37,114 nt of DNA from a virus (taxonomy: Duplodnaviria; Heunggongvirae; Uroviricota; Caudoviricetes). Under the pieces are notes generated by a model that searched no databases, was not told the origin of the DNA, and worked only from the letters and a program-made list of their open reading frames with translations. Each line of letters opens with the position of its first letter. The stretch's first letter is position 1. The translations under genes were made by a program, and so were the position numbers. The stretch lies in IMG/VR virus record IMGVR_UViG_3300029084_000052, positions 1-37,114 of that record, one strand, 5' to 3'. This document shows positions 935-35,978 of the stretch, piece after piece.

Positions 935-2620
935 GTGAATATAAACGTCGCCGAATTGTTAAATGGGAATTACATTCTGTTATTATTTGTGGTCCTCGCG
1001 CTTGGGCTATGTCTCGGAAAGTTACGACTTGGTTCGATCCAACTGGGTAATTCCATTGGCGTTTTAGTCGTATCGCTGTTATTAGGCCAACAACATTTCA
1101 GCATTAACACCGACGCGCTTAATCTTGGCTTTATGCTGTTTATTTTCTGCGTCGGGGTCGAAGCCGGACCGAACTTTTTTTCCATTTTTTTTCGCGATGG
1201 GAAAAATTACCTAATGTTAGCACTGGTGATGGTTGGCAGTGCGCTGGTGATCGCCTTAGGGTTAGGTAAGCTGTTTGGCTGGGATATTGGCCTGACGGCC
1301 GGTATGTTAGCAGGCTCTATGACGTCAACACCGGTTCTGGTCGGTGCTGGCGATACACTGCGTCATTCCGGCATGGAAAGCAGGCAGCTCTCACTGGCAC
1401 TGGATAATCTGAGCCTCGGGTATGCCTTAACCTATTTAATCGGTCTGGTGAGTTTGATTGTTGGTGCGCGTTACTTGCCGAAATTGCAGCATCAGGACTT
1501 ACAGACCAGCGCCCAGCAAATCGCCCGCGAACGTGGCCTGGACACTGATGCCAACCGTAAGGTTTATTTACCGGTGATCCGGGCCTACCGCGTCGGCCCG
1601 GAGCTGGTGGCCTGGACCGACGGCAAAAATCTGCGTGAACTGGGTATTTATCGACAAACTGGCTGTTACATTGAACGTATTCGGCGTAACGGGATTCTGG
1701 CAAATCCAGACGGTGATGCCGTACTACAAATGGGCGATGAAATAGCGTTGGTAGGCTATCCTGACGCCCACGCCCGACTCGATCCCAGTTTCCGTAATGG
1801 CAAAGAAGTTTTCGATCGTGACCTTCTCGACATGCGTATCGTCACTGAAGAAGTGGTCGTTAAAAACCATAACGCTGTTGGCAAACGCTTGGCACAACTG
1901 AAGTTGACCGATCACGGTTGCTTCCTTAACCGCGTCATTCGTAGCCAGATTGAGATGCCGATTGATGACAACGTCGTGCTTAACAAAGGTGACGTTTTAC
2001 AAGTCAGCGGCGATGCCCGTCGCGTAAAAACCATCGCCGATCGCATCGGCTTTATCTCGATTCACAGCCAGGTCACTGACTTGCTGGCATTCTGCGCCTT
2101 CTTTGTTATTGGGCTGATGATCGGGATGATCACCTTCCAGTTCAGCACATTCAGTTTCGGCATGGGGAACGCTGCCGGGTTGTTATTCGCCGGAATCATG
2201 CTGGGCTTTATGCGCGCGAACCACCCGACCTTCGGTTACATTCCGCAGGGTGCATTAAGCATGGTGAAGGAGTTCGGCTTGATGGTGTTTATGGCAGGCG
2301 TTGGTCTGAGCGCCGGTAGCGGTATTAATAACGGCCTGGGCGCAATTGGCGGTCAAATGTTGATTGCCGGATTGATTGTCAGTCTGGTGCCCGTGGTTAT
2401 CTGTTTCTTGTTCGGTGCTTATGTATTGCGAATGAACCGCGCACTGTTGTTCGGCGCAATGATGGGCGCACGCACCTGCGCGCCGGCAATGGAGATCATC
2501 AGTGATACAGCTCGCAGTAACATCCCGGCGCTGGGCTATGCGGGCACCTACGCAATCGCCAACGTCCTGCTGACGCTGGCAGGGACAATCATCGTCATGG
2601 TATGGCCAGGATTAGGATAA
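935..2620 (+). CDS. ybjL: Putative transport protein YbjL (AAE-family transporter with duplicated membrane domains and central TrkA-C-like domains)
   Basis: 561-aa ORF with GTG start and N- and C-terminal polytopic membrane regions; matches E. coli YbjL from memory. Confidence 0.85.
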
Positions 2621-2733
2621 AACTGAAGTTGCCCTGAAAATGAAATTTTTTTGCACAACCGCAGAACTTTTCCGCAGGGCATCAGTCTTAATTAGTGCCA
2701 CTGCTTTTCTTTGATGTCCCCATTTTGTGGAGC

Positions 2734-2776
2734 CCATCAACCCCGCCATTTCGGTTCAAGGTTGATGGGTTTTTTG
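2734..2776 (+). terminator. Stem-loop plus T-tract downstream of ybjL, at or near the left prophage junction
   Basis: cccatcaacc ... ggttgatggg stem followed by ttttttg on the plus strand. Confidence 0.4.
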
Positions 2777-2855
2777 TTGCCTGAAATTTAAGATGTTTAA
2801 AATCATGATGTTAGAAGCACTGTTTTTTAACGATGGCGACAAAATGGCGGCAGCG

Positions 2856-3074
2856 TCAAAGAGAGAGCGCCACCTGTCCTGATTTCATTGGATGCGGCTG
2901 AACTGGATTCGACTCTTTTGGTGTTGCAATCGAACGAACAAAAGTTTCATGGGTAACAAAAGTATGGCTGCAGTTAATGTTCTGGCACTGGTTATAACGC
3001 TCTTTGGTCAATGAAGATACCTGAAAACTGCTGCGAGTATGGGCGGCACTTCCACACAGTGGGCAAATCATCAT
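2856..3074 (-). CDS. ogr: Late-gene transcription activator, Ogr (P2) / B (186) family zinc-finger protein
   Basis: MMICPLCGSAAHTRSS...ERYNQCQNINCSHTF resembles P2 Ogr (CPLC ... C-x2-C-x3-NC); ATG chosen at the MMICPLCG position, giving about 72 aa. Confidence 0.8.
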   Translation of the reverse strand: MMICPLCGSAAHTRSSFQVSSLTKERYNQCQNINCSHTFVTHETFVRSIATPKESNPVQPHPMKSGQVALSL

Positions 3075-3164
3075 TTTTCGAGTTCTCCCCATTTTTGCTA
3101 AATTCACAACAATGATACCGTATTATTCCATTTTGCAAACTTAAAAGTTCTCCATTGCGAAGAA

Positions 3165-4265
3165 TCATTCCATTTCGAAATCATCAATCCTCACTTCAAG
3201 CTCCAGACTGGTCGTAAAACCGTTATCCGGGCTGACGGTATGTGTCAGGGTGGTAATGGTCCATTCCGCATCATCTATCGGCTGTTTAAAGCCGCTGACC
3301 TTCACAGGCATTTCCGTGTAGAGATCCGCCCGACCTTCCGCCAGTTGTAGCGAGAATGACGCAACACCGCGTTGCAGGCGTTCCCACTGCATTTTCGCTG
3401 CCCGTTCGGCGTTACTCCGATTAGCATAGGTGCGATTAAGTACCAGCACGTTTTCATCCGTCCCCACCAGGTAATCGCCCTGCTTCGCTTCCGGCTCTTT
3501 CTTCTGCTTCTTAGTCCTGCGCTTACGCTTCACCGTGGTGCTTTTTTTCTTCGCGGGTTCGCGGGTATGCAACCAGCTGGCTATTACACCCGTGTAAGCT
3601 CCGCGATCCGCCAGGGTAAAGCGGTGACTGTCGCCGTCCTTACGTGTGATAGTGATCACCGGTAGTGGTTTACCGCTGGCGCTTTTACCCTGTCCCTGCC
3701 GGATGAATAACAGATTGCCATTTTTCACCGACGCAATAGCACCGTACTGTCGCGCCAGCCGCATCAGAAAACTGCCGTCACTCTCATTAGTCTGGTCTAT
3801 ATGCTCCACGGGCTTATCCGACAGGTCTTTACCCAGTGCCATCTTCAGCTTGTGCCGCGCGGCTATTTCCTTCACCACTTCCCCGATGGTGGTGTTATGC
3901 CACGATTTTTCACGGCGGGTATTCAGCGTTTCACGAAAATCAGCACTTCGCGCCCGGATAGTCAGGCGGTCCGGTGCGCCAGTGTGTTCAATCTCGTCCA
4001 CCGTGAATGCCCCTTTCGGGAAAAGCGGCAGCCCCTTCCAGCCCAGCGCCAGCGTAATGACCGCACCACGGCGCGGCAGCACGATTTTTCCGTCGGCGTC
4101 GTCCAGCTCCAGATCAAGCTGGTCCGCTTCAAAGCCCCGATTGTCCGCCAGCGTCAGACTCATCAGACGGTTATCCAGCACAGTGGTGATATCCCTGCCC
4201 TCAATACTGATACTGAATGCCGGAGTTTTGTTGCCTTTGTTAAGCAGTTCAGAGCTGAAATTCAT
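3165..4265 (-). CDS. D: Tail protein D (late control gene D family)
   Basis: 366-aa ORF at the P2 gene D position; its start overlaps the gene U stop. Confidence 0.8.
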   Translation of the reverse strand: MNFSSELLNKGNKTPAFSISIEGRDITTVLDNRLMSLTLADNRGFEADQLDLELDDADGKIVLPRRGAVITLALGWKGLPLFPKGAFTVDEIEHTGAPDRLTIRARSADFRETLNTRREKSWHNTTIGEVVKEIAARHKLKMALGKDLSDKPVEHIDQTNESDGSFLMRLARQYGAIASVKNGNLLFIRQGQGKSASGKPLPVITITRKDGDSHRFTLADRGAYTGVIASWLHTREPAKKKSTTVKRKRRTKKQKKEPEAKQGDYLVGTDENVLVLNRTYANRSNAERAAKMQWERLQRGVASFSLQLAEGRADLYTEMPVKVSGFKQPIDDAEWTITTLTHTVSPDNGFTTSLELEVRIDDFEME

Positions 4266-4747
4266 GACAGCAGCCCTCCCACCGTTTTACTGATATCGCT
4301 TAAGGCAGATGTTGCCATGTCCTGCAGATTATTCAGCTGCGCACTGAGATCACCAAACATATCGGACAGGGATTCATCCACCCGTTTGAGCGACAGGGTG
4401 AACTCAATCCGGCGCGGCATACCGTCGCGGAAAAACTCCGTTTTGGTCTGATTCAGTCCCTCAATCACATACATGCCGTAAATCGTGCCGCTGCCTTCAA
4501 TCAGGGGCCATGCTTTCCCCTGTTCTGCCATCTGCTCCAGTGCCAGCAATGACAACCTGCCGCCTGTTATCTCCGGCATAAGAACACCAGAAAGCGTCAG
4601 CATGTCGTTGTCCGGTCCCAGAAACTGCGTGGATGGACGACGATTTATCCGACTGTTAGCCGCATGTCGCCAGCTGCGCTGATACTGCAGTTCCTGATAC
4701 GGCACGGTGCGCAGCATAAACACGTACAATCCCAGCACCATCATCAT
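4262..4747 (-). CDS. U: Tail protein U
   Basis: 161-aa ORF at the P2 gpU position, coupled to T and D. Confidence 0.8.
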   Translation of the reverse strand: MMMVLGLYVFMLRTVPYQELQYQRSWRHAANSRINRRPSTQFLGPDNDMLTLSGVLMPEITGGRLSLLALEQMAEQGKAWPLIEGSGTIYGMYVIEGLNQTKTEFFRDGMPRRIEFTLSLKRVDESLSDMFGDLSAQLNNLQDMATSALSDISKTVGGLLS

Positions 4748-7700
4748 GCGTCGTATCCCCCCTGATCGCTGTAGTTACTCCTGGCTTTTGCCTTCAGCCT
4801 GCGTTCACGTTCATCAAGCTGGCGGGCCACCTCCCGTGCAATATCCTGCGCACTTTGTCCTGGCTGCGTCTGGATGATGATCTGCGTTGGTGCCTCAATC
4901 TGGTAAACGGGCGGCACAGTGACTGCGCGACTCACCATCGCTTCACCGCCTTTCGCGGGAAGCGCCAAAGGATGCAACGGTGGAAACTCTGCTGGCGCGG
5001 CAGCAACGCCCATCATTCCGGCGACAACCGCAGCCAGTGCAGCGGTATTTCTCCGGCTGGTCACGTTTGCCGGGCCATTGACAATTTCAGGCCCGTTTTC
5101 ACCGACAATGCCAAACTGCCCGCGCGGGATATAGCCGCCGCGGTCATACATCCCCGCAAAGCCATATCCCCATGATGGAAAACCACCCGATGACATCATC
5201 ACTTTACCGTCTGCATTCACCGTCACAGGTTGCTGACGCGTCACGCTTTCCGGCAGTTTTGCCTTTGCGGCCTCTTTACTGACAATGCCAAGTTTCTCCA
5301 GTAACCAGGAAACACCGGATTTCAGGGAGTCCAGCGGATGCATAACCATATTCAGCCCTTCCGCCAGTGCCTCCCCGAATCGTCGCCCCATTGCCGCTGC
5401 GCTCTGCAGTTCGGCAGAGGTCGACTTAACGGGCGTCAGCAGATCAGTAAACCAGCCCCACAGCGCCTGTACTTTATCGCCAATCCACTGAAATACAGGC
5501 TTAAGTGGTTCGAATGCTGCACTGACGGGACCAGCCGCCGCTTTGAATCCTTCCACCACGCCACCGAGAAATGCGGTGATGGGTTGCCAGTATTTCCAGA
5601 CAACCAGCGCCACGCCCGCCAGTGCAGTAACCACAAGACCTATCGGACTGAGCAGAGCACCTAACAGACCAGATATGGCATACAGGGCAACGCGCAGCAT
5701 CGCCAGTGGACCAGATGCCAGTACTCGCAGCACCGTGCCTGCGGCGGCCAGTCCACCGCGCAGTACCGCCAGAGGATTCATAAACATCACAGCAACAGCA
5801 CGTAAACCGGATAATCCAGACCGCAAAAGTGCAACCGGCGCACCTGCTACAGTTTTCAGGACATTTCCCGTCAGTGATGCCGTGCGGCGCAAAGACGACA
5901 ACGGCGCAGTAAGTAAACCTGCGGCGTTGCCCGATGAAGCAAGCCCGCGTCGCAGCAGTGCCAGTGGTGCGCCAGCCAGCCAGGATAACGCGCTGCTGGT
6001 TCGAGTTACTGCTGCCGTAACGGAAGATAACGTTTTGATACCCAACACAGAGAATCCCAGACGGATCACTGCCAGCGGCCCCAGCACTGCAGCCAGCGCC
6101 ACCGCTAAGGTGCCGAGGCCGACGGTAACCGCAGCCACAACAGCCGATGCTTTCATCAGTGTGCCTGTCAGTTCCGGGTTAGCTTCCACCCAGCGACGCA
6201 ACGCCCCCGTGACGCTTTTCACCGTGTACAGAATATCCATCAGCGGCTGGCGCAGCGTTTCGCCCAGGCTGCTGAAGGTGTTCTGCGCTCCGGTTTTGAC
6301 CAGCAACCACTGCGCAGAAAGTGAATCCTTGTTAATGTCGGATTCTTTCTGCATGGAGCCGAGCGCATCATTGCCCGCTGTCAGTTTTAACTGACGCTGC
6401 AGTTCCGGCAGGTTGTTTGCCAGTTTCGCCGCGTCATCGCCAAACTCTTTACCAAACAACATAGTCATGGCAGACAGGCGCTTGTCCTGCGGCAGCGCGT
6501 TTACCTTCTCCAGCACGCGCTGGATGGTTCCCATCGCATCCTTCGTCATCTGCTTTTCAATCACTTCAGGATTGAGTTTCAGCAGATTCATCCCTTCAAA
6601 GAAACTCTTGCTTTGCATGGTGGCAATGGACAATTCACGCACCATCGCGTTTGCTGCACTGGCTGCAACCTCTGGCGCAGCGCCCAGTGTCAGGAAGGTG
6701 GAACCCAGCGCCGCCGCTTTACGATAATCCAGACGGTCAGCCACACCGCCCAGACGTTGCATCACATCAATGATGTCTGCCCCTTTCGACATGGCGTTAT
6801 CATCCAGATAGTTCAGCGCATCACCGAGCTGTTCAATATTGCGGGTGGGGATTTTGTAGAGCTGGGCGATTTTCCCCAGACTTTCTGACAGTTCATCCGC
6901 TGGCAGCTCAAAGGCTGTTGCCGCCTTTGCTGCCGTACTGGCGAAGGCCAGCAGGTCACGTTTCTGATCTTCCCAGCTGTCGTCAGGGTTTGCGACGTTC
7001 ATGCGCGCACCACCTTCAACCAGTGCAGCGAAGTCCACCGCACCGTTTTCCATCGGCAACTGTTCGCTGGCAGCCTTGATGGCATCCTGCATTTCATAAA
7101 AACGTGCAGTGCGGTTGCCATTATCGTCACGCAGACCATTGACCTGCTTTGCCACACCTTTCATGGCATCTTCCATGCTGGTATAGCTTTTTACTGCCGC
7201 CATCACTGGCGCACCCATTGCCAGCCCTGCAGCCGTGGTGGTGGCTCCGGCACCTGCAATACGATCACGCACCTCCAGCGAACGGGCATAACTGGCACGC
7301 GCTGCATTCATCCTGCGCTGAGCTTCCCCCAGTCGCTTCAGCCGCGCCTCCTGTTTCGAAAGTTCCTGGTTATAACGTGATGTTTCACGGGCTAAACGGG
7401 CAGTTGCTCCCGCATCGTCTTTCGCAGAAATTCCCGCCCGGTACAGTTCAGCACGCACAAGCGCCGTCTGCTGCTGCAGCTTTTTCTGGCGTTCTTCCAG
7501 GCGCTGAACAGCCAGCCGTTGACGGCCCAGAGCAACAACCTGACGTTGCGAAGGCGGCCCCATCGCTCCCAGTTCCTGACTGAGCAAATTTGCACGCTGG
7601 CGGGCATAGTTCAGCCTGTCGCCTAATTTCTGATTTTCTGCCTGCAGCTTTCGGAAGCTGTCCAGACTGCTCCCGGCCTGATCAAGCTGCTTTATTGCAT

Positions 7701-10144: not shown

Positions 10145-10711
10145 TCAGGGGGATTCATTGATCTTATTTGCCGGAAATTTTCTATAAATGGTAGAAACGC
10201 CTACATCAAAAATCAGTGCAATACGCTGTATTGATTCTCCGGCCTCGAGTAAACGCCCAATCTGTGCCCACTGTTCGGTGGTCAACTTAGGACGGCGTCC
10301 ACCTACTCTGCCTTTGGCACGAGCTGCAGCCAGCCCTGCCCTGGTACGTTCAACTATCAGTTCGCGTTCCATTTCAGCCAGGGCACCCATGACATGAAAA
10401 AAGAAACGGCCCATTGGGGTACTGGTATCAATACTGTCAGTCAGGCTTCTGAAATTCACACCACGCTGGCGCAACTCTTCTATCAGCGTAACAAGATGCC
10501 GCATACTGCGCCCCAACCTGTCCAGCTTCCAGACAACCAGCGTGTCTCCTGCCGATAGTGTCCTGAGCAGTTTTTTCAGCCCCGGTCTGTCGGACTTAGT
10601 GCCACTGATTTTGTCCTCAAAAATCCGCTCACATCCCGCGCAGTTCAGTGCATTTCGTTGCAAATCGGTGTTCTGGTCATTTGTTGACACGCGTACATAG
10701 CCAATAAGCAT
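10145..10711 (-). CDS. Site-specific DNA invertase, serine recombinase of the Pin/Gin/Hin/Cin family
   Basis: MLIGYVRVSTNDQNTDLQRNAL...LVVWKLDRLGRSM...GRFFFHVMGALAEMERELIVERT is near-identical in pattern to e14 Pin and Hin from memory; start set at the second ATG after a GGGGG Shine-Dalgarno. Confidence 0.85.
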   Translation of the reverse strand: MLIGYVRVSTNDQNTDLQRNALNCAGCERIFEDKISGTKSDRPGLKKLLRTLSAGDTLVVWKLDRLGRSMRHLVTLIEELRQRGVNFRSLTDSIDTSTPMGRFFFHVMGALAEMERELIVERTRAGLAAARAKGRVGGRRPKLTTEQWAQIGRLLEAGESIQRIALIFDVGVSTIYRKFPANKINESP

Positions 10712-10765
10712 GATCATCCCCCTGAATAAAAACCGGAGATGATGCCAGTTAGCTGTTACCTCTGC

Positions 10766-10791
10766 ATTTTCTTAAACGTTGGTTTGGGAGA
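10766..10791. repeat. Invertase crossover site A (26 bp, imperfect dyad, core TT)
   Basis: TTTTCTTAAACG TT GGTTTGGGAGAA; the right half-site is the inverted copy of the left half-site of site B. Confidence 0.6.
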
Positions 10792-11236
10792 AGGTGCTCC
10801 AGCTATTGGCGTTCCGTTCTTCTGGCCGTCCGCTGCAATGCCAAATACTGTAATCGACAGCTGGTCCAGTATGGTGTTTTTGAAGTTCAACGGCGCGAAA
10901 TTCTCTGCCACTGATTATCCTGTGCTGGCGAAAGTATTTCCTTCGCTGGTATTACCTGAAGCCCGCGGTGATTTCATTCGTATCTGGGATGACGGACGAG
11001 GTGCAGACGGTGGTCGCGAATTATTAAGCTGGCAGGCAGCTACAAACTTTTCTCAGTTTGCCGGGAATATAGGCGAAGGTGCGGGACACGCAATTAACTT
11101 TCATGATGGCATCGCCGGAAATCAGCCAGGATTTTCACGATTTAATTTCACCAGTAACTCTGTGGGTGATGGTGTGAATTTTGTTGCTGTCAGACCGCGC
11201 AATATTGCATTTAACTTTCTGGTGAGGGCTAAATAA
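10780..11236 (+). CDS. Alternative tail-fibre C-terminal segment, silent in this orientation and fused to the H constant region only after inversion
   Basis: Reading frame open across site A (..LGLGEGAPAIGVPFFWPSAAMP..) with no start or promoter of its own; its stop overlaps the next ATG (TAATG). Confidence 0.55.
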
Positions 11237-11829
11237 TGAAACCTGTTTTTGATAAAAATGGGCTGGCTACAGTGCCGGGCGATATGCGTTGTTTTTATTA
11301 TGATGCTGAAACATCTGAGTATACGGGCTGGTCTGATGAATATATTAATACTGGCGTAAGTATGCCCGCCTGTTCCACTGGTATTGACCCTGGCGAAAAC
11401 ATTCCGGGAAGAGTGGCAGTATTTACAGGTAAGGGATGGAGCCATGAAGAAGACCATCGCAATGAGACTGTTTACTCAATCGAAAATGGTGCTGCTGTTA
11501 CAGTGGATTATATCGGTGCCATCAAAAACGGTTATGTCACGCTTTCACCGTTAACGCCATATGATAAATGGGATGGTGAGAAATGGGTGACAGATACTGA
11601 GGCACAACACGGTGCCGCAGTAGACGCGGCAGAAGCACAGCGCCAGTCACTGATTGATGCTGCAATGGCTTCCATCAGTCTGATTCAGCTGAAATTACGG
11701 GCCGGACGGAAGCTAATGCAGGCAGAAACCACCCGACTTAACATTGTGCTGGATTACATTGACGCGGTGACGGCAACAGATACCAGCACCGCGCCTGATG
11801 TCATCTGGCCTGAGCTGCCGGAGGCGTAG
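11236..11829 (+). CDS. Alternative tail fibre assembly protein (U'/G' analogue)
   Basis: 197-aa ORF coupled to the alternative fibre segment; its C-terminus DTSTAPDVIWPELPEA parallels the minus-strand assembly protein C-terminus DTSTAPDIEWPTPP. Confidence 0.65.
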   Translation: MKPVFDKNGLATVPGDMRCFYYDAETSEYTGWSDEYINTGVSMPACSTGIDPGENIPGRVAVFTGKGWSHEEDHRNETVYSIENGAAVTVDYIGAIKNGYVTLSPLTPYDKWDGEKWVTDTEAQHGAAVDAAEAQRQSLIDAAMASISLIQLKLRAGRKLMQAETTRLNIVLDYIDAVTATDTSTAPDVIWPELPEA

Positions 11830-22130: not shown

Positions 22131-23897
22131 ATGAACACCACACTGACACCCGCAGATCTCGATCCCCGTCGGCAGGCCATGCTGCTGTACTTTCAGGGAT
22201 ACCGCGTAGCCCGCATTGCTGAAATGCTGGGCGAGAAAGTTGCAACTGTTCACAGCTGGAAAAAACGCGACAAGTGGGGTGATTATGGGCCGCTGGATCA
22301 GATGCAGCTCACCACCGCCGCACGCTATTGCCAGCTCATTATGAAGGAGCACAAAGAAGGGAAAGATTTCAAAGAGATTGACCTGCTGGCGCGCCAGTCG
22401 GAACGCCACGCGCGGATCGGCAAGTTTAACAATGGTGGCAACGAAGCCGACTTAAACCCTAACGTCGCCAACCGCAACAAAGGCCCACGCCGTCAGCCGG
22501 AAAAGAACGTTTTCACCGATGAACAGATTGAGAAGCTGGAAGAAATCTTCCATTCCTCCATGTTCAACTACCAGCGCCACTGGTGGGAAGCCGGAAAAAC
22601 CAACCGCATCCGCAACCTGCTGAAGTCACGCCAGATCGGCGCGACCTTCTATTTTGCCCGTGAAGCCCTGATTGACGCCCTGCTGACCGGACGTAACCAG
22701 ATTTTCCTTTCTGCCAGTAAGGCACAGGCCCACGTATTCAAACAGTACATCATCGACTTTGCCAAAGAAGTAGAGGTGGAGCTGAAAGGCGATCCGATGG
22801 TGCTTCCCAACGGGGCCACACTGTATTTCCTCGGCACCAATGCCCGCACGGCCCAGAGTTATCACGGCAACCTGTATCTGGATGAATATTTCTGGATACC
22901 AAAATTCCAGGAGCTGCGCAAAGTGGCTTCCGGTATGGCTATTCACAAAAAATGGCGACAAACCTATTTTTCCACGCCATCCAGTCTGACACACAGTGCT
23001 TATCCGTTCTGGTCCGGTGCGCTGTTCAACCGTGGGCGCAACAAAGCCGATAAGGTGGACATCGACCTGTCCCACAGCAATCTGGCCCCCGGCCTGCTGT
23101 GCGCAGACGGGCAATACCGCCAGATAGTCACCGTGGAAGATGCGGTGCGCGGCGGCTGTAACCTGTTCGACCTCGACCAGCTACGCATGGAGTACAGCCC
23201 GGACGAATACCAGAACCTGCTGATGTGCGAGTTTGTGGACGATCTCGCGTCCGTGTTTCCGCTCAGCGAGCTGCAGGCGTGCATGGTGGACAGTTGGGAA
23301 GTCTGGACCGACTTTCATGCACTGGCGCTGCGCCCGTTTGGCTGGCGCGAAGTGTGGATCGGTTATGACCCGGCAAAAGGCACGCAAAACGGCGACAGCG
23401 CCGGATGCGTGGTGGTGGCACCGCCAGCCGTGCCGGGTGGTAAGTTCCGCATTCTTGAGCGTCACCAGTGGCGCGGGATGGACTTCCGCGCCCAGGCTGA
23501 CGCCATCAAAAAACTGACCGAACAGTACAACGTGACCTATATCGGTATCGACTCAACCGGCGTTGGTCACGGGGTTTACGAGAACGTGAAAGCGTTTTTT
23601 CCTGCCGTCCGGGAGTTTGTCTACAACCCCAACGTTAAAAACGCCCTGGTACTCAAGGCCTACGACATTATCAGCCACCGCCGTCTGGAGTTTGACGCCG
23701 GGCACACCGACATTGCGCAGTCATTCATGGCTATCCGTCGCGCCACCACCGCCAGCGGCAACCGCCCGACCTATGAAGCCAGCCGCAGCGAAGAAGCCAG
23801 CCACGCCGATCTGGCCTGGGCAACAATGCACGCACTGTTTAACGAACCGCTGCAGGGCGAGTCCGCCAATACCAGCAATATTGTGGAGATTTTTTGA
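22131..23897 (+). CDS. P: Terminase large subunit P
   Basis: 588-aa ORF at the P2 gpP position and of matching length. Confidence 0.85.
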   Translation: MNTTLTPADLDPRRQAMLLYFQGYRVARIAEMLGEKVATVHSWKKRDKWGDYGPLDQMQLTTAARYCQLIMKEHKEGKDFKEIDLLARQSERHARIGKFNNGGNEADLNPNVANRNKGPRRQPEKNVFTDEQIEKLEEIFHSSMFNYQRHWWEAGKTNRIRNLLKSRQIGATFYFAREALIDALLTGRNQIFLSASKAQAHVFKQYIIDFAKEVEVELKGDPMVLPNGATLYFLGTNARTAQSYHGNLYLDEYFWIPKFQELRKVASGMAIHKKWRQTYFSTPSSLTHSAYPFWSGALFNRGRNKADKVDIDLSHSNLAPGLLCADGQYRQIVTVEDAVRGGCNLFDLDQLRMEYSPDEYQNLLMCEFVDDLASVFPLSELQACMVDSWEVWTDFHALALRPFGWREVWIGYDPAKGTQNGDSAGCVVVAPPAVPGGKFRILERHQWRGMDFRAQADAIKKLTEQYNVTYIGIDSTGVGHGVYENVKAFFPAVREFVYNPNVKNALVLKAYDIISHRRLEFDAGHTDIAQSFMAIRRATTASGNRPTYEASRSEEASHADLAWATMHALFNEPLQGESANTSNIVEIF

Positions 23898-24928
23898 TGG
23901 GAAAGAGTAAGAAAAACCGCGCTGCGGCGACGAAACAGAGCCAGCATAAAAATCAAACTTCAGCCGAAGCTTTCAGCTTTGGTGATCCCATTCCTGTACT
24001 GGACCGCCGCGAACTGCTGGACTATGTGGAATGCGTACAGACGGATCGCTGGTATGAGCCACCCGTCAGTTTTGACGGACTGGCACGCACCTTCCGCGCT
24101 GCCGTGCATCACAGTTCACCGATTGCAGTGAAATGCAACATTCTGACCAGCACCTACATCCCTCACCCGCTGCTCAGCCAGCAGGCTTTTTCACGTTTTG
24201 TGCAGGACTATCTGGTATTTGGTAACGCCTACCTGGAGAAACGCACGAACCGGTTCGGTGAAGTTATCGCCCTTGAGCCTGCTCTGGCAAAATACACCCG
24301 ACGCGGGTTAGACCTGGATACCTACTGGTTTGTGCAATACGGTATGATCACCCAGCCATATCAGTTCACGAAAGGCAGCATCTTTCATCTGATGGAACCG
24401 GACATCAACCAGGAAATCTACGGCCTGCCCGGTTATCTTTCTGCTATTCCATCCGCCCTGCTCAACGAGTCTGCCACGCTGTTCCGCCGCAAGTATTACA
24501 TTAACGGCAGTCATGCAGGCTTCATCATGTATATGACCGACGCCGCGCAGAACCAGGAGGATGTAAACAACCTCCGCAACGCGATGAAAAGTGCCAAAGG
24601 TCCTGGTAACTTCCGTAACCTATTTATGTACTCGCCAAACGGCAAAAAGGACGGACTTCAGATCATCCCGTTGTCAGAAGTCGCGGCGAAGGATGAGTTT
24701 TTGAATATCAAGAACGTCAGCCGTGATGACATGATGGCGGCGCACCGTGTACCGCCACAAATGATGGGTATTATGCCGAATAATGTTGGGGGGTTTGGGG
24801 ATGTGGAGAAGGCAAGTAATGTATTTGTTCGTAACGAACTTATCCCCTTACAAAAACGTATAGAACAATTAAATCAATGGATAGGAAACACAATTATTAA
24901 TTTTTTACCATATTCTCTCCAAAGTTAA
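23897..24928 (+). CDS. Q: Portal protein Q
   Basis: About 343 aa; the ATG overlaps the P stop (TGATG). Confidence 0.85.
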   Translation: MGKSKKNRAAATKQSQHKNQTSAEAFSFGDPIPVLDRRELLDYVECVQTDRWYEPPVSFDGLARTFRAAVHHSSPIAVKCNILTSTYIPHPLLSQQAFSRFVQDYLVFGNAYLEKRTNRFGEVIALEPALAKYTRRGLDLDTYWFVQYGMITQPYQFTKGSIFHLMEPDINQEIYGLPGYLSAIPSALLNESATLFRRKYYINGSHAGFIMYMTDAAQNQEDVNNLRNAMKSAKGPGNFRNLFMYSPNGKKDGLQIIPLSEVAAKDEFLNIKNVSRDDMMAAHRVPPQMMGIMPNNVGGFGDVEKASNVFVRNELIPLQKRIEQLNQWIGNTIINFLPYSLQS

Positions 24929-24940
24929 AAAATAGCATAT

Positions 24941-24963
24941 GGGTGCATAATGTTTATGCACCC
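24941..24963. terminator. Perfect 10-bp hairpin between convergent Q and the TIR-like gene, probable bidirectional terminator
   Basis: GGGTGCATAA tgt TTATGCACCC, flanked by an A-run upstream and T-rich sequence downstream. Confidence 0.55.
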
Positions 24964-24968
24964 TCTTA

Positions 24969-25586
24969 TTACCAGTTAAAAATTGATGAGCTGCGAATTG
25001 CAGGAACATCCGATGGATTTCGTTTGGCAGCTGGTTCCATCAACTTACGCTTGTTAAATGCCTGATCAATATAATACTCAGGATTTTTAATAAAGACAGA
25101 GTATTTTACCAATGCACAATATACGTCAGAGTCATTATAATGGGGAACTGTTTTTTCATAAACATGATTCTTTCTAACCAGATAAGGCAAATAATAATCA
25201 TATCCCCAACCTGGCGTTCTTAGACTTATAGAACATCCGCATGATGGATCTGCACATACTGCAGGAGTAAACACACTGTCGTAAATTTCATCTCTGATAA
25301 CACCAATTAGACCATTATAGTTTTCTCCCCAGAGTGATGCTTGAATTTCAGAGTTTATAAATGGACGATTTTTGGTTTCCGTTCCAATAAGAACGACAGT
25401 AACCGTTGAGTCTTTTAAAAAATCCTCACGAATAGTCCTCATTATTGTTTCATCAGTGTTAGTTGTACTAATGTCACCATCACTTACCGACTTATCAATA
25501 AACGATTCTCCTCCGAATAAATCAATAATCTCATCTTTGAGATCTTGTTCGTTAGCATGATGATAACTAAGAAACGTCTTATGCAT
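24969..25586 (-). CDS. TIR-like domain protein (ThsB/DUF1863-like), accessory gene
   Basis: Begins MHKTFLSYHHANEQD (TIR beta-A-like F-L-S-Y); a later VTVVLIGTETKNRPFINSEIQ stretch resembles the ThsB-type core with a candidate catalytic Glu; AT-rich coding sequence. Confidence 0.55.
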   Translation of the reverse strand: MHKTFLSYHHANEQDLKDEIIDLFGGESFIDKSVSDGDISTTNTDETIMRTIREDFLKDSTVTVVLIGTETKNRPFINSEIQASLWGENYNGLIGVIRDEIYDSVFTPAVCADPSCGCSISLRTPGWGYDYYLPYLVRKNHVYEKTVPHYNDSDVYCALVKYSVFIKNPEYYIDQAFNKRKLMEPAAKRNPSDVPAIRSSSIFNW

Positions 25587-26317
25587 TATTCACTCCATTT
25601 ATCAACATTTATATCAAACTCTTTGACTACCTTATCATTGAAGAAATCGTTTACTTCTTTAAAACCTTCCAATACTTGACTAAAATGATAATAATGCTTT
25701 TGTATAGTACTTATAGGGGTTAAATGATACGGCAGTGATATAAATTCGCCGTTAGGGTCTCTATCCTTTGTGGTCACTTTATCATTATCTGAAACATATT
25801 TATGCCATCTCCGATAATTATTTTGATGCTTTGTTAAAAAAGAGTTTAACGTTTTCAAAATTTCATTTGAAAGTAAATACAGTTTTTTATCTCTTTTTTT
25901 CTTCACATCTAGTAATTTCATTTCATCTCTAATGAATTTATAGCACTCATAATATGAGTTTAAAACTTCTTCAATTGAGTCATAATTCGGATCAAATTTA
26001 AATAATGTTCGCTTCGTATCCAGATAATTTTTTACGCTCTTTTTAAAAAGAAGATCAGACTTATTTAGTAAAATATTAATACCACCAAAACTAAGTTGCT
26101 CCAATCTCAATGAATATCTTTGATGAAATGCACCGACCAGCAAGATATAAGCAACTAAAAATAGTATTAATACTGATAGAAAAGCACGAATTATGCTTAC
26201 ATTTGACATGAAATTAACTATAAACCACCATTTTTCAAACGGTGAAAACGGAATGCACCCCATGATAATAAGTAGAAGAACAAAGATACAACCCCATAAA
26301 ACCCACAATCTGTACAT
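25586..26317 (-). CDS. Two-TM membrane protein with a roughly 170-aa Lys/Glu-rich C-terminal domain of unknown family; partner of the TIR-like gene
   Basis: Start at the ATG (MYRLWVLWGCIF..) after an AAAAGGA Shine-Dalgarno; two hydrophobic helices; stop overlaps the TIR-like start (TAATG). Confidence 0.5.
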   Translation of the reverse strand: MYRLWVLWGCIFVLLLIIMGCIPFSPFEKWWFIVNFMSNVSIIRAFLSVLILFLVAYILLVGAFHQRYSLRLEQLSFGGINILLNKSDLLFKKSVKNYLDTKRTLFKFDPNYDSIEEVLNSYYECYKFIRDEMKLLDVKKKRDKKLYLLSNEILKTLNSFLTKHQNNYRRWHKYVSDNDKVTTKDRDPNGEFISLPYHLTPISTIQKHYYHFSQVLEGFKEVNDFFNDKVVKEFDINVDKWSE

Positions 26318-26470
26318 AAGAAAGATCCTTTTTCTTTTTATAATACTGCAACTACACCTCAAGTCAAAACCCTCTTCTGATATTACCCTCTACTACAGTA
26401 ACCCATCACATGACCTCCGACTTATCAGAAGACTAGCCAAACTTTCTCAATCAAATCAGGTTGCGCGCGC

Positions 26471-26495
26471 TCGTATCCCCGCCACGCCTGCCCGC
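26471..26495 (-). other. cos-like sequence (candidate phage cohesive-end site)
   Basis: Minus strand reads GGCGTGGCGGGGA.., matching the first 13 nt of the P2/186 19-nt cohesive end as I recall it; lies in a short GC-rich island. Confidence 0.4.
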
Positions 26496-26605
26496 TTTAT
26501 GTAGTAGTTTTCATGCAGGTGCATGATCTACGCGAAAGCCCGCCAATTCTGGCGGGCCCTAGCAAAAACGATCCTCAAACGATCATGCGATCTCATGCAG
26601 CATAG

Positions 26606-27448
26606 TCATGCACGATCATTTGACTCAGCATCTGCTGCACGCTTGCTGCGCGAAGATGCACTTTTACTATCAATCTTTCGACAGTTCTTTCTATCCCTGG
26701 CTTCATTTTCTTTAAATTTGTTATATGTCTCAGTATCAAAAAACGAAATTGTTTCAACCTCATCTTTTGGTATGAGCACACGGAAATCTTCGATATTAAG
26801 CCGAGACATTCCACTTATCACACCACTATCAAGATAATGTTGGTGATAGTTAGTCGTGATACTAATCGTTAGATCATCTTTATCCCGATATCCGCTTAAC
26901 ATCGGGAGAAGTTCAAGGTGCTCTGAAAGCCCGTTTTCTAACGCCGGACAAGTAACAAGACCAACATAGATTTTGCGAGACGACAGAGTTGCTATGATCG
27001 GAAACTGTCTTGCGGACGCTTCCATGAGTAATGATTCGAAAGCGTTATTACCTACAGCTTTAGCTAAGGCATCCCAGCGACGATCTCCACGTGATGTGCG
27101 TAACTTATTTCCAAAACCTGAAATCGCAGCGAGGACAATTGAAATCATAACCCATGCTATCTGTTTGATTTCATTTATTCTTTGAAGTTTGTCTTTCGAT
27201 GAAGACAACATGCCATTAAAACTGTCAGGTGTTAGATTCAAGGCATTAGCCAGCCAACGAAACCCTCCGCTGACGTTCAAAATAAAGGTGAAAAAACCGC
27301 CAAGGAGAAAAAAAACGATACCCCAGGCAGCCACAAAAAAATAAGCGTCCCAGCCGTTGGAACGCTTATATCGGTATCTTGTTGAAAGTGATAGGTTTAC
27401 ATAAATAAAACCACTAACCAAAATCACTGCTAAAAGTAATGTTGCCAT
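26606..27448 (-). CDS. Three-TM membrane protein with a soluble C-terminal domain, unknown function; accessory gene
   Basis: 280-aa ORF with three N-terminal hydrophobic helices, AT-rich; coupled to the upstream 71-aa gene (TAATG). Confidence 0.5.
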   Translation of the reverse strand: MATLLLAVILVSGFIYVNLSLSTRYRYKRSNGWDAYFFVAAWGIVFFLLGGFFTFILNVSGGFRWLANALNLTPDSFNGMLSSSKDKLQRINEIKQIAWVMISIVLAAISGFGNKLRTSRGDRRWDALAKAVGNNAFESLLMEASARQFPIIATLSSRKIYVGLVTCPALENGLSEHLELLPMLSGYRDKDDLTISITTNYHQHYLDSGVISGMSRLNIEDFRVLIPKDEVETISFFDTETYNKFKENEARDRKNCRKIDSKSASSRSKRAADAESNDRA

Positions 27449-27663
27449 TATCTGGTTCTATTAGTTTTCTCTTTTACAGTGCTCGTTTTGATGCCTTCAA
27501 GCTTATCCATCTGTGCCTTGATGGCATCCATTGCTCTTTTGTTAGACAAGTCTACGGACACAAAACCATCTTTACTAAGATTGAGTTTGTCCTGGTTCTC
27601 TTTAAGAACCCTTGCCAGACGTTCAACTGGGTTACCCAGGCTAAATGCGGCGATGCTTGACAT
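27448..27663 (-). CDS. Small 71-aa hydrophilic protein, unknown function; first gene of a coupled pair
   Basis: ATG preceded by AAGGGGGAG; stop overlaps the start of the 280-aa membrane protein. Confidence 0.45.
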   Translation of the reverse strand: MSSIAAFSLGNPVERLARVLKENQDKLNLSKDGFVSVDLSNKRAMDAIKAQMDKLEGIKTSTVKEKTNRTR

Positions 27664-34301: not shown

Positions 34302-35978
34302 ATGAATTCATTTTCCATCGTTATATTCTTATTAGCATTTCTCGCCCCCATTCTAGCTGTAATATTATTTAAGCAAAGCAAAAAACATAAAGCGGCTATA
34401 AATACCTTGACAGCTAACAACATAGCCCTTTCCAACCAACTGAAAGAAAATCAAGAAGAATTAGCACAGACTGTACGAGATCTATCAGAGCTTGAAGGAC
34501 GAGCTGCGCCATTATGGCAATACGTAGAATTGCACAGCGCAGTGATGGAAGCAGAGAATAAGATAAAAAATGCAGACTCAATAGCCAGGCAAAAAATAGA
34601 AGAAGCCCAAATAAAGGCTGCTAAGACAGTAAACGAAGCAAATTATCAAGCTCAGATAAAAATAAGCAACGCTAATAGCGAAGCTATAGCAATTACTAAA
34701 GACGCTCGCGATGCACGCCTGAAAGCTAAAGAACGTCTTGATAATGCCAATAGTAAAGCAAATGAGCTGATCTCAAATGCTAATGACAATGCAGTGAAAA
34801 TTATTTCCGATGCAGAAGAAAGAGCAAAAGAGATTGCTGGTTCAGCATATGAAGCTAAAGAGTTTGCAGAAAAATATGAAGCAGTTGCCAAATCAATGAA
34901 AAATAAAATTGAAGGTTATGGTGATGAATGGATCATCCCTAACCGTAGCGTTCTCGATGAATTGGCAGAAAATTATGAGTTTACAGATGCAGGTAAGGAA
35001 TTACAAAAAGCCAGGGAGTTAACAAAATCATTAATAAAAACTAATAAAGCTGCTTCGTGTGATTATGTTGAACAAAACAGGCGTAATACTGCTATCAACT
35101 TTGTTTTAGATGCCTTCAATGGAAGAGTTGACAGTATTTTATCAAAAGTCAAACACAACAATTTTGGAAAACTTTCCCAAGAGATAAAAGATGCGTTTCA
35201 ACTTGTAAATTACAATGGTTCTGCCTTTAGGTCCGCAAAAATAAGTGACATCTATCTTCAAGCTCGACTCAACGAGCTAAAATGGGGAGTTGCAGTTAAT
35301 GAAATTATGCTCGAAGAAAAAGAAGAGCAAAGAAGGATTAAAGAACAACTTCGTGAAGAGGAAAGAGCTCGTAGGGAGTATGAAAAAGCGATAAAAGAAG
35401 CTGAAAAAGAAGAGAAAGCTATTCAGCAAGCTATAAATAAAGCAACAAAAGAGCTTATGCTTGCAAATGAAGAACAACGCTTAGCTTTAGAGCAAAAAAT
35501 AGCTGAACTACAGTTAAAATATGAAGAAGCTGAAGCTAAAAACCAACGAGCTATTTCTATGGCTCAACAAACTAGATCAGGCCACGTTTATATAATTAGT
35601 AATATTGGCTCATTTGGCGAAGATGTATATAAAATTGGAATGACACGCCGCCTTGAACCACTTGATCGTGTTCGTGAACTCGGTGATGCTAGTGTTCCTT
35701 TTTCGTTCGATGTTCATGCGATGATTTATAGTGATGATGCACCATCATTAGAAAATCATCTGCATAAAGTCTTCAACGAAAAACAGGTCAATAAAATTAA
35801 CTCACGAAAAGAGTTTTTCAACGTAAATATTAAAGAAATTAAGTCTGTTATTGAAGATATGAACATCAACGCACAATGGACAATGTTTGCGGAAGCGAAA
35901 GAATATAGAGAGTCACTGGCGATTGAGCAAGAGCGCAAAGCAGCAACTTCCGCCAACGATGAACTGCATGTTGCTTAG
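34302..35978 (+). CDS. Membrane-anchored coiled-coil protein with a C-terminal T5orf172/GIY-YIG-like domain (DUF4041-like architecture); accessory gene
   Basis: N-terminal TM helix, long Ala/Lys/Glu-rich repeats, C-terminal GHVYIISNIGSFGEDVYKIGMTRRLEPLDRVRELGDASVPFSFDVHAMIYS; AT-rich; AAAAGGA Shine-Dalgarno 20 nt after the cI stop. Confidence 0.6.
   Translation: MNSFSIVIFLLAFLAPILAVILFKQSKKHKAAINTLTANNIALSNQLKENQEELAQTVRDLSELEGRAAPLWQYVELHSAVMEAENKIKNADSIARQKIEEAQIKAAKTVNEANYQAQIKISNANSEAIAITKDARDARLKAKERLDNANSKANELISNANDNAVKIISDAEERAKEIAGSAYEAKEFAEKYEAVAKSMKNKIEGYGDEWIIPNRSVLDELAENYEFTDAGKELQKARELTKSLIKTNKAASCDYVEQNRRNTAINFVLDAFNGRVDSILSKVKHNNFGKLSQEIKDAFQLVNYNGSAFRSAKISDIYLQARLNELKWGVAVNEIMLEEKEEQRRIKEQLREEERARREYEKAIKEAEKEEKAIQQAINKATKELMLANEEQRLALEQKIAELQLKYEEAEAKNQRAISMAQQTRSGHVYIISNIGSFGEDVYKIGMTRRLEPLDRVRELGDASVPFSFDVHAMIYSDDAPSLENHLHKVFNEKQVNKINSRKEFFNVNIKEIKSVIEDMNINAQWTMFAEAKEYRESLAIEQERKAATSANDELHVA

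What the first reader, a model, noticed from the sequence alone, without database searches (positions are those of the whole stretch)
24969..26317. Two-gene operon (2-TM protein plus ThsB-like TIR protein) inserted between portal gene Q and cos
In P2, cos lies roughly 0.1 kb beyond Q; here about 1.5 kb of visibly AT-rich DNA separates them and encodes a translationally coupled pair. The downstream protein has TIR hallmarks (F-L-S-Y beta-A motif, a VLIG...R.F...EI core with a candidate catalytic Glu). The upstream protein has two TM helices and a helical Lys/Glu-rich C-terminal domain with no glycine-rich macro-domain motif and no SIR2 signature, so it fits neither described ThsA type. This could be a Thoeris-like signalling defence with an uncharacterised membrane effector, carried as a prophage moron.
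Basis: partly seen in the sequence, partly recalled or inferred. Interest (0 to 1): 0.85.

Follow-up and report, generated by a model that had tools for sequence, protein, structure and literature searches.

The report
Type VI Thoeris on P2-like prophage

Summary
Two genes on the minus strand overlap by one base (TAATG): a 243-aa two-TM protein (25586-26317) and a 205-aa TIR protein (24969-25586). They fill a 1.54-kb AT-rich insert (32% GC; phage P gene 56%, Q gene 49%) between the portal Q stop (24928) and cos (26470-26488). In P2 and 186 that gap is about 0.17 kb. The TIR protein matches Pfam ThsB_TIR (1.5e-14). The TM protein matches no Pfam or PADLOC model and has no Macro, SIR2 or SLOG domain.

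It is not uncharacterised. E. coli ACN001 carries the same pair (99.0% nt; 239/243 and 202/205 aa; upstream region identical). Yirmiya et al. (bioRxiv, December 2025) cloned that pair with its native promoter, showed it defends E. coli, and classed it as type VI Thoeris: ThsB plus ThsG ("DUF6650 and TM"), with 2'cADPR as the signal. Rousset et al. 2022 had already listed this TIR protein among P2 hotspot cargo.

Profile comparisons link the C-terminal domain to a validated Bacillus ThsG. Homologues down to 32% identity keep a ThsB neighbour. The pair is variable cargo, found with these flanks in 42 of 1265 E. coli genomes that match them.

One point stays open. [quoted passage not shown]

Verdict: already known, low interest.

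The parts
25586..26317 (-). thsG: 243-aa effector with two N-terminal TM helices and a mainly helical ThsG ("DUF6650"-labelled) C-terminal domain
   Evidence: ORF; RefSeq uses the same start. It is 239/243 identical to ACN001 WP_000286099, the effector the preprint lists as 'DUF6650 and TM', type VI, Defense: Yes. AlphaFold model pLDDT 83; two hydrophobic segments. hhalign links it to a validated Bacillus ThsG through an intermediate family.
24969..25586 (-). thsB: 205-aa TIR-domain protein, the putative infection sensor and signal synthase; candidate catalytic residue E80
   Evidence: Pfam ThsB_TIR 1.5e-14; PADLOC ThsB 3.4e-12. It is 202/205 identical to ACN001 WP_000549632, whose sequence matches the TIR-domain sequence printed for IMG 2638504641 in the preprint's Table S1. 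E80 aligns with the Glu of the RYEI motif of B. cereus ThsB.
26340..26367 (-). sigma-70-like promoter for thsG-thsB (TTGACT, 16 nt, TATTAT)
   Evidence: It matches 10 of 12 consensus positions. The whole segment from cos to thsG is 100% identical in ACN001 and A14, and the preprint cloned the ACN001 system under its native promoter. Promoter function is inferred, not shown.
24941..24963 (.). GC-rich hairpin between the convergent Q and thsB stops; probable bidirectional terminator
   Evidence: A 10-bp stem found by the scan. On the minus strand a T-run follows it. P2 and 186 have the terminators tQ and tW at the equivalent place.
26470..26488 (-). cos cohesive-end 19-mer, the right-hand boundary of the insert
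   Evidence: It aligns with the annotated cos of 186 (15/19) and P2 (14/19), plus a shared GCGCGC. Window 26456-26550 is the only part of the query conserved in P2-like phage records.
23894..24928 (+). portal gene Q, the left-hand boundary of the insert
   Evidence: ORF; annotated as phage portal protein in A14.

Best explanation
This is a type VI Thoeris anti-phage system carried as accessory cargo of a P2/186-like prophage, in the cos-proximal hotspot on the portal side of cos.

The two genes are probably transcribed from their own promoter, independently of the phage late genes, so a lysogen would express them (inferred). ThsB is a cytoplasmic TIR-domain protein. It senses infection by another phage and converts NAD+ into a cyclic ADP-ribose signal, most likely 2'cADPR. 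ThsG sits in the inner membrane through two N-terminal helices and binds that signal with its cytoplasmic helical domain. The authors' AlphaFold3 models suggest ThsG forms a hexameric ring with positively charged pockets between protomers. The family-invariant residues K102/R103 and Q165/N166/R169/R170/W171 are candidate pocket residues. Activated ThsG then arrests growth, presumably by breaching the membrane, so the invading phage cannot complete its cycle.

What is shown for the near-identical ACN001 pair: it defends E. coli MG1655, and T7 was the phage used to trigger its ThsB. What is shown for other type VI systems: 2'cADPR is produced on infection, 2'cADPR added to the medium is toxic, and the sponges Tad1 and MoTad2 and the hydrolase XopQ block defence. 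What is inferred for this locus: the identity of the signal, the ThsG oligomer and pocket, membrane disruption, and expression in the lysogen.
For: ACN001 carries the pair at 99.0% nt identity, with 239/243 and 202/205 identical residues and an identical upstream region. The ACN001 TIR in RefSeq matches the TIR-domain sequence printed for IMG 2638504641.

The preprint's Table S2 lists 'Escherichia coli ACN001 ... DUF6650 and TM, VI, E. coli MG1655, Defense Yes, T7, 40 min'. The methods say it was cloned under its native promoter. The type VI biochemistry is described, and the XopQ follow-up.

The window ThsB is 43% identical, over the roughly 100-aa TIR core, to the Gammaproteobacteria-scaffold ThsB whose system responds to 2'cADPR. 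Both belong to the same TIR cluster in the preprint's Table S1.

Effector homology: A1 against A2 gives hhalign probability 99.6%, E=4.4e-24. A2 against the 171-aa Bacillus ThsG, which is encoded next to a TIR 100% identical to the validated Bacillus-scaffold TIR domain, gives 98.3%, E=2.1e-14.

The thsG-thsB pairing is kept in relatives down to 32% identity, in Priestia and in metagenomes. The soluble A2 family also lies next to ThsB genes.

The pair is variable cargo. It also moves as a unit into islands that are not P2-like.
Against: The preprint states that two of the five defensive type VI systems gave no detectable 2'cADPR. The text held here does not say which, so ACN001 may be one of them.

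The 2'cADPR toxicity, sponge and XopQ experiments used the metagenomic Gammaproteobacteria and Bacillus systems, not ACN001.

hmmscan against the Pfam copy here gives no PF20355 hit for the window ThsG. It gives none for the validated Bacillus or E. coli S1 ThsG either, so the 'DUF6650' label could not be reproduced directly.

The direct comparison of A1 with a single Bacillus ThsG sequence is not significant (E=0.23).

Nothing has been measured on how ThsG kills. The source is a preprint. The window proteins differ from the tested ones by 4 and 3 residues.
Confidence: 0.88

Rival explanations
1. The architecture and role are the same (TIR sensor and synthase plus ThsG membrane effector), but this E. 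coli/P2 clade signals with a TIR product other than 2'cADPR that has not yet been identified.
For: The preprint's limitations section says two of five type VI systems produced no detectable 2'cADPR and 'may rely on a different immune signal'. All the 2'cADPR functional tests used other representatives. This ThsB shares only 43% identity with the Gammaproteobacteria-scaffold ThsB, and only over the TIR core. It also has an extra Cys-rich C-terminal extension of about 100 aa.
Against: The ACN001 and S1 ThsB proteins were expressed from weak native promoters, which makes a signal below the detection limit a simple explanation. The TIRs fall in the same cluster as a 2'cADPR system. The effector domain motifs are conserved across the family.
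Confidence: 0.1
2. The TIR protein is itself the toxic effector, depleting NAD+, and the TM protein is a sensor or anchor rather than a signal-activated effector.
For: Some bacterial TIR proteins act as NADase effectors in CBASS, Pycsar and pAgo systems. The preprint acknowledges this possibility, though only for its unverified putative Thoeris types.
Against: In other type VI systems, 2'cADPR added from outside arrests growth only when the system is present, and signal sponges abolish defence. That places ThsG downstream of a diffusible signal. The TIR protein here belongs to the ThsB family.
Confidence: 0.015
3. The pair is not a defence system but serves the phage's own life cycle, for example as a holin-like lysis or packaging accessory near cos.
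For: It lies next to cos and the portal gene, and it encodes a small two-TM protein.
Against: It is absent from about 97% of E. coli genomes that carry these flanks. It is absent from P2 and 186. It occurs in contexts that are not P2-like and lack phage genes. It is retained in the decayed ACN001 prophage remnant. It defends when cloned alone.
Confidence: 0.005

Closest known systems
Type VI Thoeris (ThsB + ThsG) of E. coli ACN001, Yirmiya et al., bioRxiv 10.64898/2025.12.03.692087
   Same: Same two genes in the same order with the same 1-nt overlap. The pair is 99.0% identical in nucleotide sequence, with 239/243 (ThsG) and 202/205 (ThsB) identical residues. The upstream region is identical, and the position between portal and cos of a P2-like element is the same.
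   Different: There are four substitutions in ThsG and three in ThsB. Here the prophage looks complete, whereas in ACN001 it is a remnant with a truncated portal and tape measure. The window also has a further two-gene cargo across cos that ACN001 lacks.
Type VI Thoeris of the metagenomic Gammaproteobacteria scaffold (TM-ThsG) and of the Bacillus scaffolds (soluble ThsG), the representatives used for the 2'cADPR biochemistry
   Same: The architecture is TIR plus a ThsG-domain effector. The ThsB TIR core is 43% identical to that of the Gammaproteobacteria scaffold. The ThsG domain is homologous through a profile chain.
   Different: The sequences are distant. The Bacillus ThsG has no TM helices, and in the Bacillus loci I read (L009, L011) the TIR gene comes first. 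The signal is shown for those systems but not for this one.
Type II Thoeris (ThsB + 2TM-Macro effector, His-ADPR signal)
   Same: A TIR protein paired with an effector that has two N-terminal TM helices and a cytoplasmic ligand-binding domain. The logic is probably the same: a signal-gated attack on the membrane.
Rst_2TM_1TM_TIR, the system of P2-like phage AC1 (Rousset et al. 2022, PMC9122126)
   Same: A TIR protein plus TM protein(s), carried in the same P2 cos-proximal hotspot and shown to defend.
   Different: It has three genes, not two. Its TIR protein is a 315-aa protein with no significant similarity to this ThsB (BLASTP E=0.15). It is a different family.
Type I Thoeris (ThsB + SIR2-SLOG ThsA, 3'cADPR signal)
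   Same: A ThsB-family TIR protein. The weak alignment to B. cereus ThsB places E80 at the position of its Glu.
   Different: The effector has no SIR2 or SLOG domain.

Membership tests
Thoeris type VI (ThsB + ThsG) | A TIR-domain ThsB gene | tested here: met
   Pfam PF08937 ThsB_TIR, E=1.5e-14, 54.7 bits against a cut-off of 21.2. PADLOC ThsB, 3.4e-12.
Thoeris type VI (ThsB + ThsG) | An adjacent, co-oriented effector homologous to experimentally validated ThsG | tested here: met
   98% identical to the ACN001 effector and 50% identical to the E. coli S1 effector, both validated. hhalign gives A1-A2 99.6% (4.4e-24) and A2-Bacillus ThsG 98.3% (2.1e-14). The direct comparison of A1 with the single Bacillus sequence is not significant.
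Thoeris type VI (ThsB + ThsG) | The effector matches Pfam PF20355 (DUF6650), as the authors label it | tested here: inconclusive
   hmmscan finds no PF20355 hit at E<=10 for the window protein. The same scan also finds none for the validated Bacillus or E. coli S1 ThsG, so it cannot discriminate. One 52%-identical homologue has a precomputed weak PF20355 hit.
Thoeris type VI (ThsB + ThsG) | The two-gene operon protects against phage | not testable with these tools
   Reported for the 98-99% identical ACN001 operon in E. coli MG1655 (Table S2 of the preprint).
Thoeris type VI (ThsB + ThsG) | ThsB makes 2'cADPR on infection and ThsG responds to it | not testable with these tools
   Shown for three of five type VI systems. 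Two gave no detectable 2'cADPR and are not named in the text held here.
Thoeris type II (TM-Macro effector) | [quoted passage not shown] | tested here: not met
Thoeris type I (ThsA) | SIR2 and SLOG domains in the effector | tested here: not met
   No SIR2 or SLOG hit.
Rst_2TM_1TM_TIR (phage AC1) | Three genes, including the AC1-type TIR protein | tested here: not met
   There are two genes here. BLASTP of ThsB against the AC1 TIR protein gives E=0.15. The AC1 sequence comes from Table S2A of PMC9122126.
P2 cos-proximal defence hotspot cargo (Rousset et al. 2022) | A variable gene set between gpA and gpQ of a P2-like prophage | tested here: met
   The pair lies between Q and cos. It is present in 42 of 1265 flank-matching genomes. 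WP_000549631 is listed as 'DUF1863' in a P2 hotspot locus in that paper's Table S5.

The most novel reading that the evidence does not exclude
The E. coli/P2-borne clade of type VI Thoeris, meaning ACN001 and this window, may be one of the two tested type VI systems that gave no detectable 2'cADPR. In that case it would signal with a different, still unidentified TIR-derived nucleotide, read by a TM-ThsG variant.
Probability: 0.1. Interest if true: 0.6.

Novelty: already known. Interest (0 to 1): 0.15.

Why it matters
As a discovery it adds little. The family, the architecture, and a 98-99% identical E. coli representative have been described and tested, and the P2 hotspot is well known.

Three smaller points have some value. 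First, the window shows that the ACN001-type system is cargo of an apparently intact P2/186-like prophage, on the portal side of cos. The preprint does not mention prophages. Second, the 'DUF6650' label cannot be reproduced with a plain Pfam scan, so annotation pipelines will keep calling ThsG hypothetical, and a PADLOC 2023 scan sees only an orphan ThsB. Third, the signal for this clade may still be unestablished.

Tried and rejected
**Pfam and PADLOC scans of the effector.** I scanned the effector, 21 homologues and 57 distant relatives. None hit DUF6650, Macro, SIR2, SLOG or SLATT. As a control I scanned validated ThsG proteins, and they also gave no PF20355 hit. The Pfam test is therefore uninformative, not negative.

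**The AC1 system.** I first suspected the '2TM+1TM+TIR' system of phage AC1 (Rst_2TM_1TM_TIR), which sits in the same hotspot. I rejected it because its TIR protein is unrelated and it has three genes.

**The longer TTG start at 26362.** I rejected it. All homologues start at the ATG-equivalent Met, and the TTG lies inside the predicted -35 hexamer.

**The gene pair across cos (26606-27663).** I considered whether it belongs to the system. I rejected that because it is absent from ACN001 and the E. coli genomes listed among its best hits are not the ones listed for the thsGB pair.

Full report
**1. What is in the sequence**

The window is a P2/186-like prophage. It has terminase P (22131-23897, +), portal Q (23894-24928, +), a 186-type CI repressor, CII and an integrase at the right end. 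The host gene ybjL sits at the left end, as in E. coli ACN001.

Downstream of Q, on the minus strand, are two ORFs. One is a 243-aa protein (25586-26317, from its ATG). The other is a 205-aa protein (24969-25586). The junction reads GAATAATGCAT, so the TAA stop and the ATG start share one base, with GGAG 7 nt upstream.

The pair is 32% GC, against 56% for P, 49% for Q and 51% for the window.

The cohesive-end 19-mer lies at 26488-26470. It aligns with the annotated cos of phage 186 (15/19) and of P2 (14/19), and all three share the following GCGCGC. From the Q stop to cos is 1542 bp here, compared with 167 bp in P2 and 176 bp in 186.

A promoter-like site matching 10 of 12 consensus positions (TTGACT, 16 nt, TATTAT; 26367-26340) lies just upstream of the ATG. 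A 10-bp GC-rich hairpin (24941-24963) lies between the convergent Q and thsB stops.

**2. The two proteins**

The 205-aa protein matches Pfam ThsB_TIR (PF08937, E=1.5e-14, above the gathering score) and several PADLOC ThsB models. Weak but collinear alignments to B. cereus ThsB (PDB 6LHY, 9B7D) place E80, in VVLIGTETKNRPFINSEI, opposite the Glu of VLIGSQTFNRRWVRYEI.

Its family is small: 39 clusters at 90% identity, mostly Enterobacterales, reaching as far as Priestia. It carries invariant motifs, TKRT at 101-104 and LNxFLTxHQNNYRRW at 157-171.

**3. It is a described system**

A literature search found Yirmiya et al. (bioRxiv, 3 December 2025). That paper expands Thoeris to eleven types and defines type VI as ThsB plus a 'DUF6650' effector called ThsG. 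Some ThsG proteins have N-terminal TM helices. The signal is 2'cADPR.

Its Table S2 lists 'Escherichia coli ACN001, DUF6650 and TM, type VI, tested in E. coli MG1655, Defense: Yes, ThsB triggered with T7'.

BLAST of the window pair against complete E. coli genomes finds ACN001 at 99.0% nucleotide identity. The proteins are 239/243 and 202/205 identical. The 180 bp between cos and the start codon are 100% identical. The RefSeq ACN001 TIR protein matches, residue for residue, the TIR-domain sequence printed for IMG gene 2638504641 in the preprint's Table S1. ACN001 has only one such locus. The authors cloned the ACN001 system with its native promoter.

The window therefore carries, within a few substitutions, an experimentally validated type VI Thoeris system.

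Earlier, Rousset et al. 2022 defined the gpA-gpQ interval of P2-like phages as a defence hotspot. Their Table S5 lists this very TIR protein (WP_000549631, as 'DUF1863') in one such locus, untested. The TIR system they did validate in that hotspot, from phage AC1 (2TM+1TM+TIR), is a different family.

**4. Independent support gathered here**

(a) Gene neighbourhood. Homologues of the effector at 52%, 35% and 32% identity, from metagenomes and from Priestia, all have a ThsB_TIR gene immediately downstream in the same orientation.

(b) Effector homology. An exhaustive profile search found 215 representatives. The distant ones form a soluble family of about 218 aa (alignment A2) that also lies next to ThsB genes, in Flavobacteriales and Thermodesulfobacteriota contigs. 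hhalign gives A1 against A2 a probability of 99.6% (E=4.4e-24). A2 against the 171-aa protein encoded next to a TIR that is 100% identical to the validated Bacillus-scaffold TIR domain gives 98.3% (E=2.1e-14). The direct comparison of A1 with that single sequence is collinear but not significant.

(c) Variable cargo. 1265 of 5426 E. coli genomes match the flanks, but only 42 carry the pair with them. Variants at 66% nucleotide identity sit in islands that are not P2-like: beside integrases and a KwaB-like gene in E. coli S1, which is also a validated type VI system, and beside further TIR genes in another strain.

**5. A caveat on the label**

hmmscan against the Pfam copy available here never reports PF20355. 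It does not report it for the window protein, for 21 homologues, for 57 distant relatives, for E. coli S1 ThsG or for the validated Bacillus ThsG. Only one homologue has a precomputed 'weak' hit.

The 'DUF6650' label therefore comes from a more sensitive annotation than a plain Pfam scan. Membership rests on near-identity to the tested ACN001 system and on the profile chain described above.

**6. Mechanism, and how far it is shown**

Shown for the ACN001 twin: it defends E. coli, and T7 was the phage used to trigger its ThsB.

Shown for other type VI systems:
- 2'cADPR is made only on infection.
- 2'cADPR added from outside arrests growth only in cells carrying the system.
- Tad1, MoTad2 and XopQ abolish defence.

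Predicted by the authors: ThsG forms a hexameric tube with positively charged pockets between protomers, and the TM variants may breach the membrane.

My inference for this locus: the invariant K102/R103 and R169/R170/W171 are pocket candidates, E80 is the catalytic residue, and the operon is expressed in the lysogen from its own promoter.

Open: the preprint says two of the five defensive type VI systems gave no detectable 2'cADPR. The text available to me does not name them. Because the toxicity tests used the Gammaproteobacteria and Bacillus systems, at least one of the two E. coli systems must be among the non-producers. The ACN001 and S1 ThsB proteins were expressed from native promoters, so weak expression is the simpler explanation. 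A different signal for this clade is not excluded.

**7. Verdict**

The finding is already known: the system type is named, an almost identical E. coli locus has been tested, and the hotspot and this protein have been catalogued. Interest is low.

The residual value lies in three things: the prophage context, which the preprint does not discuss; the annotation pitfall with DUF6650; and the unresolved signal for this clade.

Noticed in passing
window 26606-27663 (-): A second AT-rich cargo lies just across cos, in the classical old/tin slot. It is a 280-aa TM protein (phrog_3630) and a 71-aa protein (phrog_9843) that overlap by one base, both of unknown function, with no PADLOC or Pfam hit. It is present in 52 E. 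coli genomes, and the genomes listed among its best hits are not the ones listed for the thsGB pair. It also occurs in Klebsiella phage ST15-OXA48phi14.1 and Salmonella phages SEN4 and SEN5, and it is absent from ACN001. It is a candidate untested defence or exclusion pair.
   Followed up: partly
window 34302-35978 (+): A 558-aa protein between the CI repressor and the integrase is a PD-Lambda-1 homologue (PADLOC E=4.7e-120; Pfam DUF4041 plus T5orf172/MUG113). This prophage therefore carries at least two recognisable defence systems in different hotspots.
   Followed up: partly
window 10145-11829: A resolvase/invertase gene (10145-10717, -) lies next to a tail-fibre assembly gene (11236-11829) and an unannotated 165-aa ORF. 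This suggests an invertible tail-fibre segment of the Gin/Cin type.
   Followed up: no
L016 1903-3660; L017 2216-3657: A soluble ThsG-like family of about 218 aa with no Pfam annotation is encoded directly after one or two ThsB_TIR genes in Flavobacteriales and Thermodesulfobacteriota contigs, beside restriction-modification and HerA-like genes. By profile comparison it bridges the enterobacterial TM-ThsG and the Bacillus soluble ThsG.
   Followed up: partly
L002 (E. coli ACN001, NZ_CP007442.1 861360-870708): In ACN001 the P2-like element is a remnant. The portal and tape-measure genes are truncated and fused back to back, yet thsG, thsB, cos, dinI and gene A are intact. The defence cargo has outlived the phage.
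   Followed up: no
NZ_CP019257.1 (E. coli 13TMH22), 365-1702: A 36,172-bp record deposited as a plasmid carries the pair at 98.4% identity, in addition to a chromosomal copy in the same strain. Its size and content suggest a circular P2-like phage genome rather than a plasmid.
   Followed up: no
L013 (E. coli UK_Dog_Liverpool), 2415-6318: A variant of the pair at 66% nucleotide identity lies directly beside two further TIR-domain genes and a hypothetical gene, next to an IS100 element. This may be a composite or second Thoeris-type system in one island.
   Followed up: no
P0026 / L004 192-908: The precomputed annotation gives this 52%-identical ThsG homologue a weak PF20355 (DUF6650) hit. A fresh hmmscan of the same protein at E<=10 reports none. 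The two Pfam resources disagree.
   Followed up: partly
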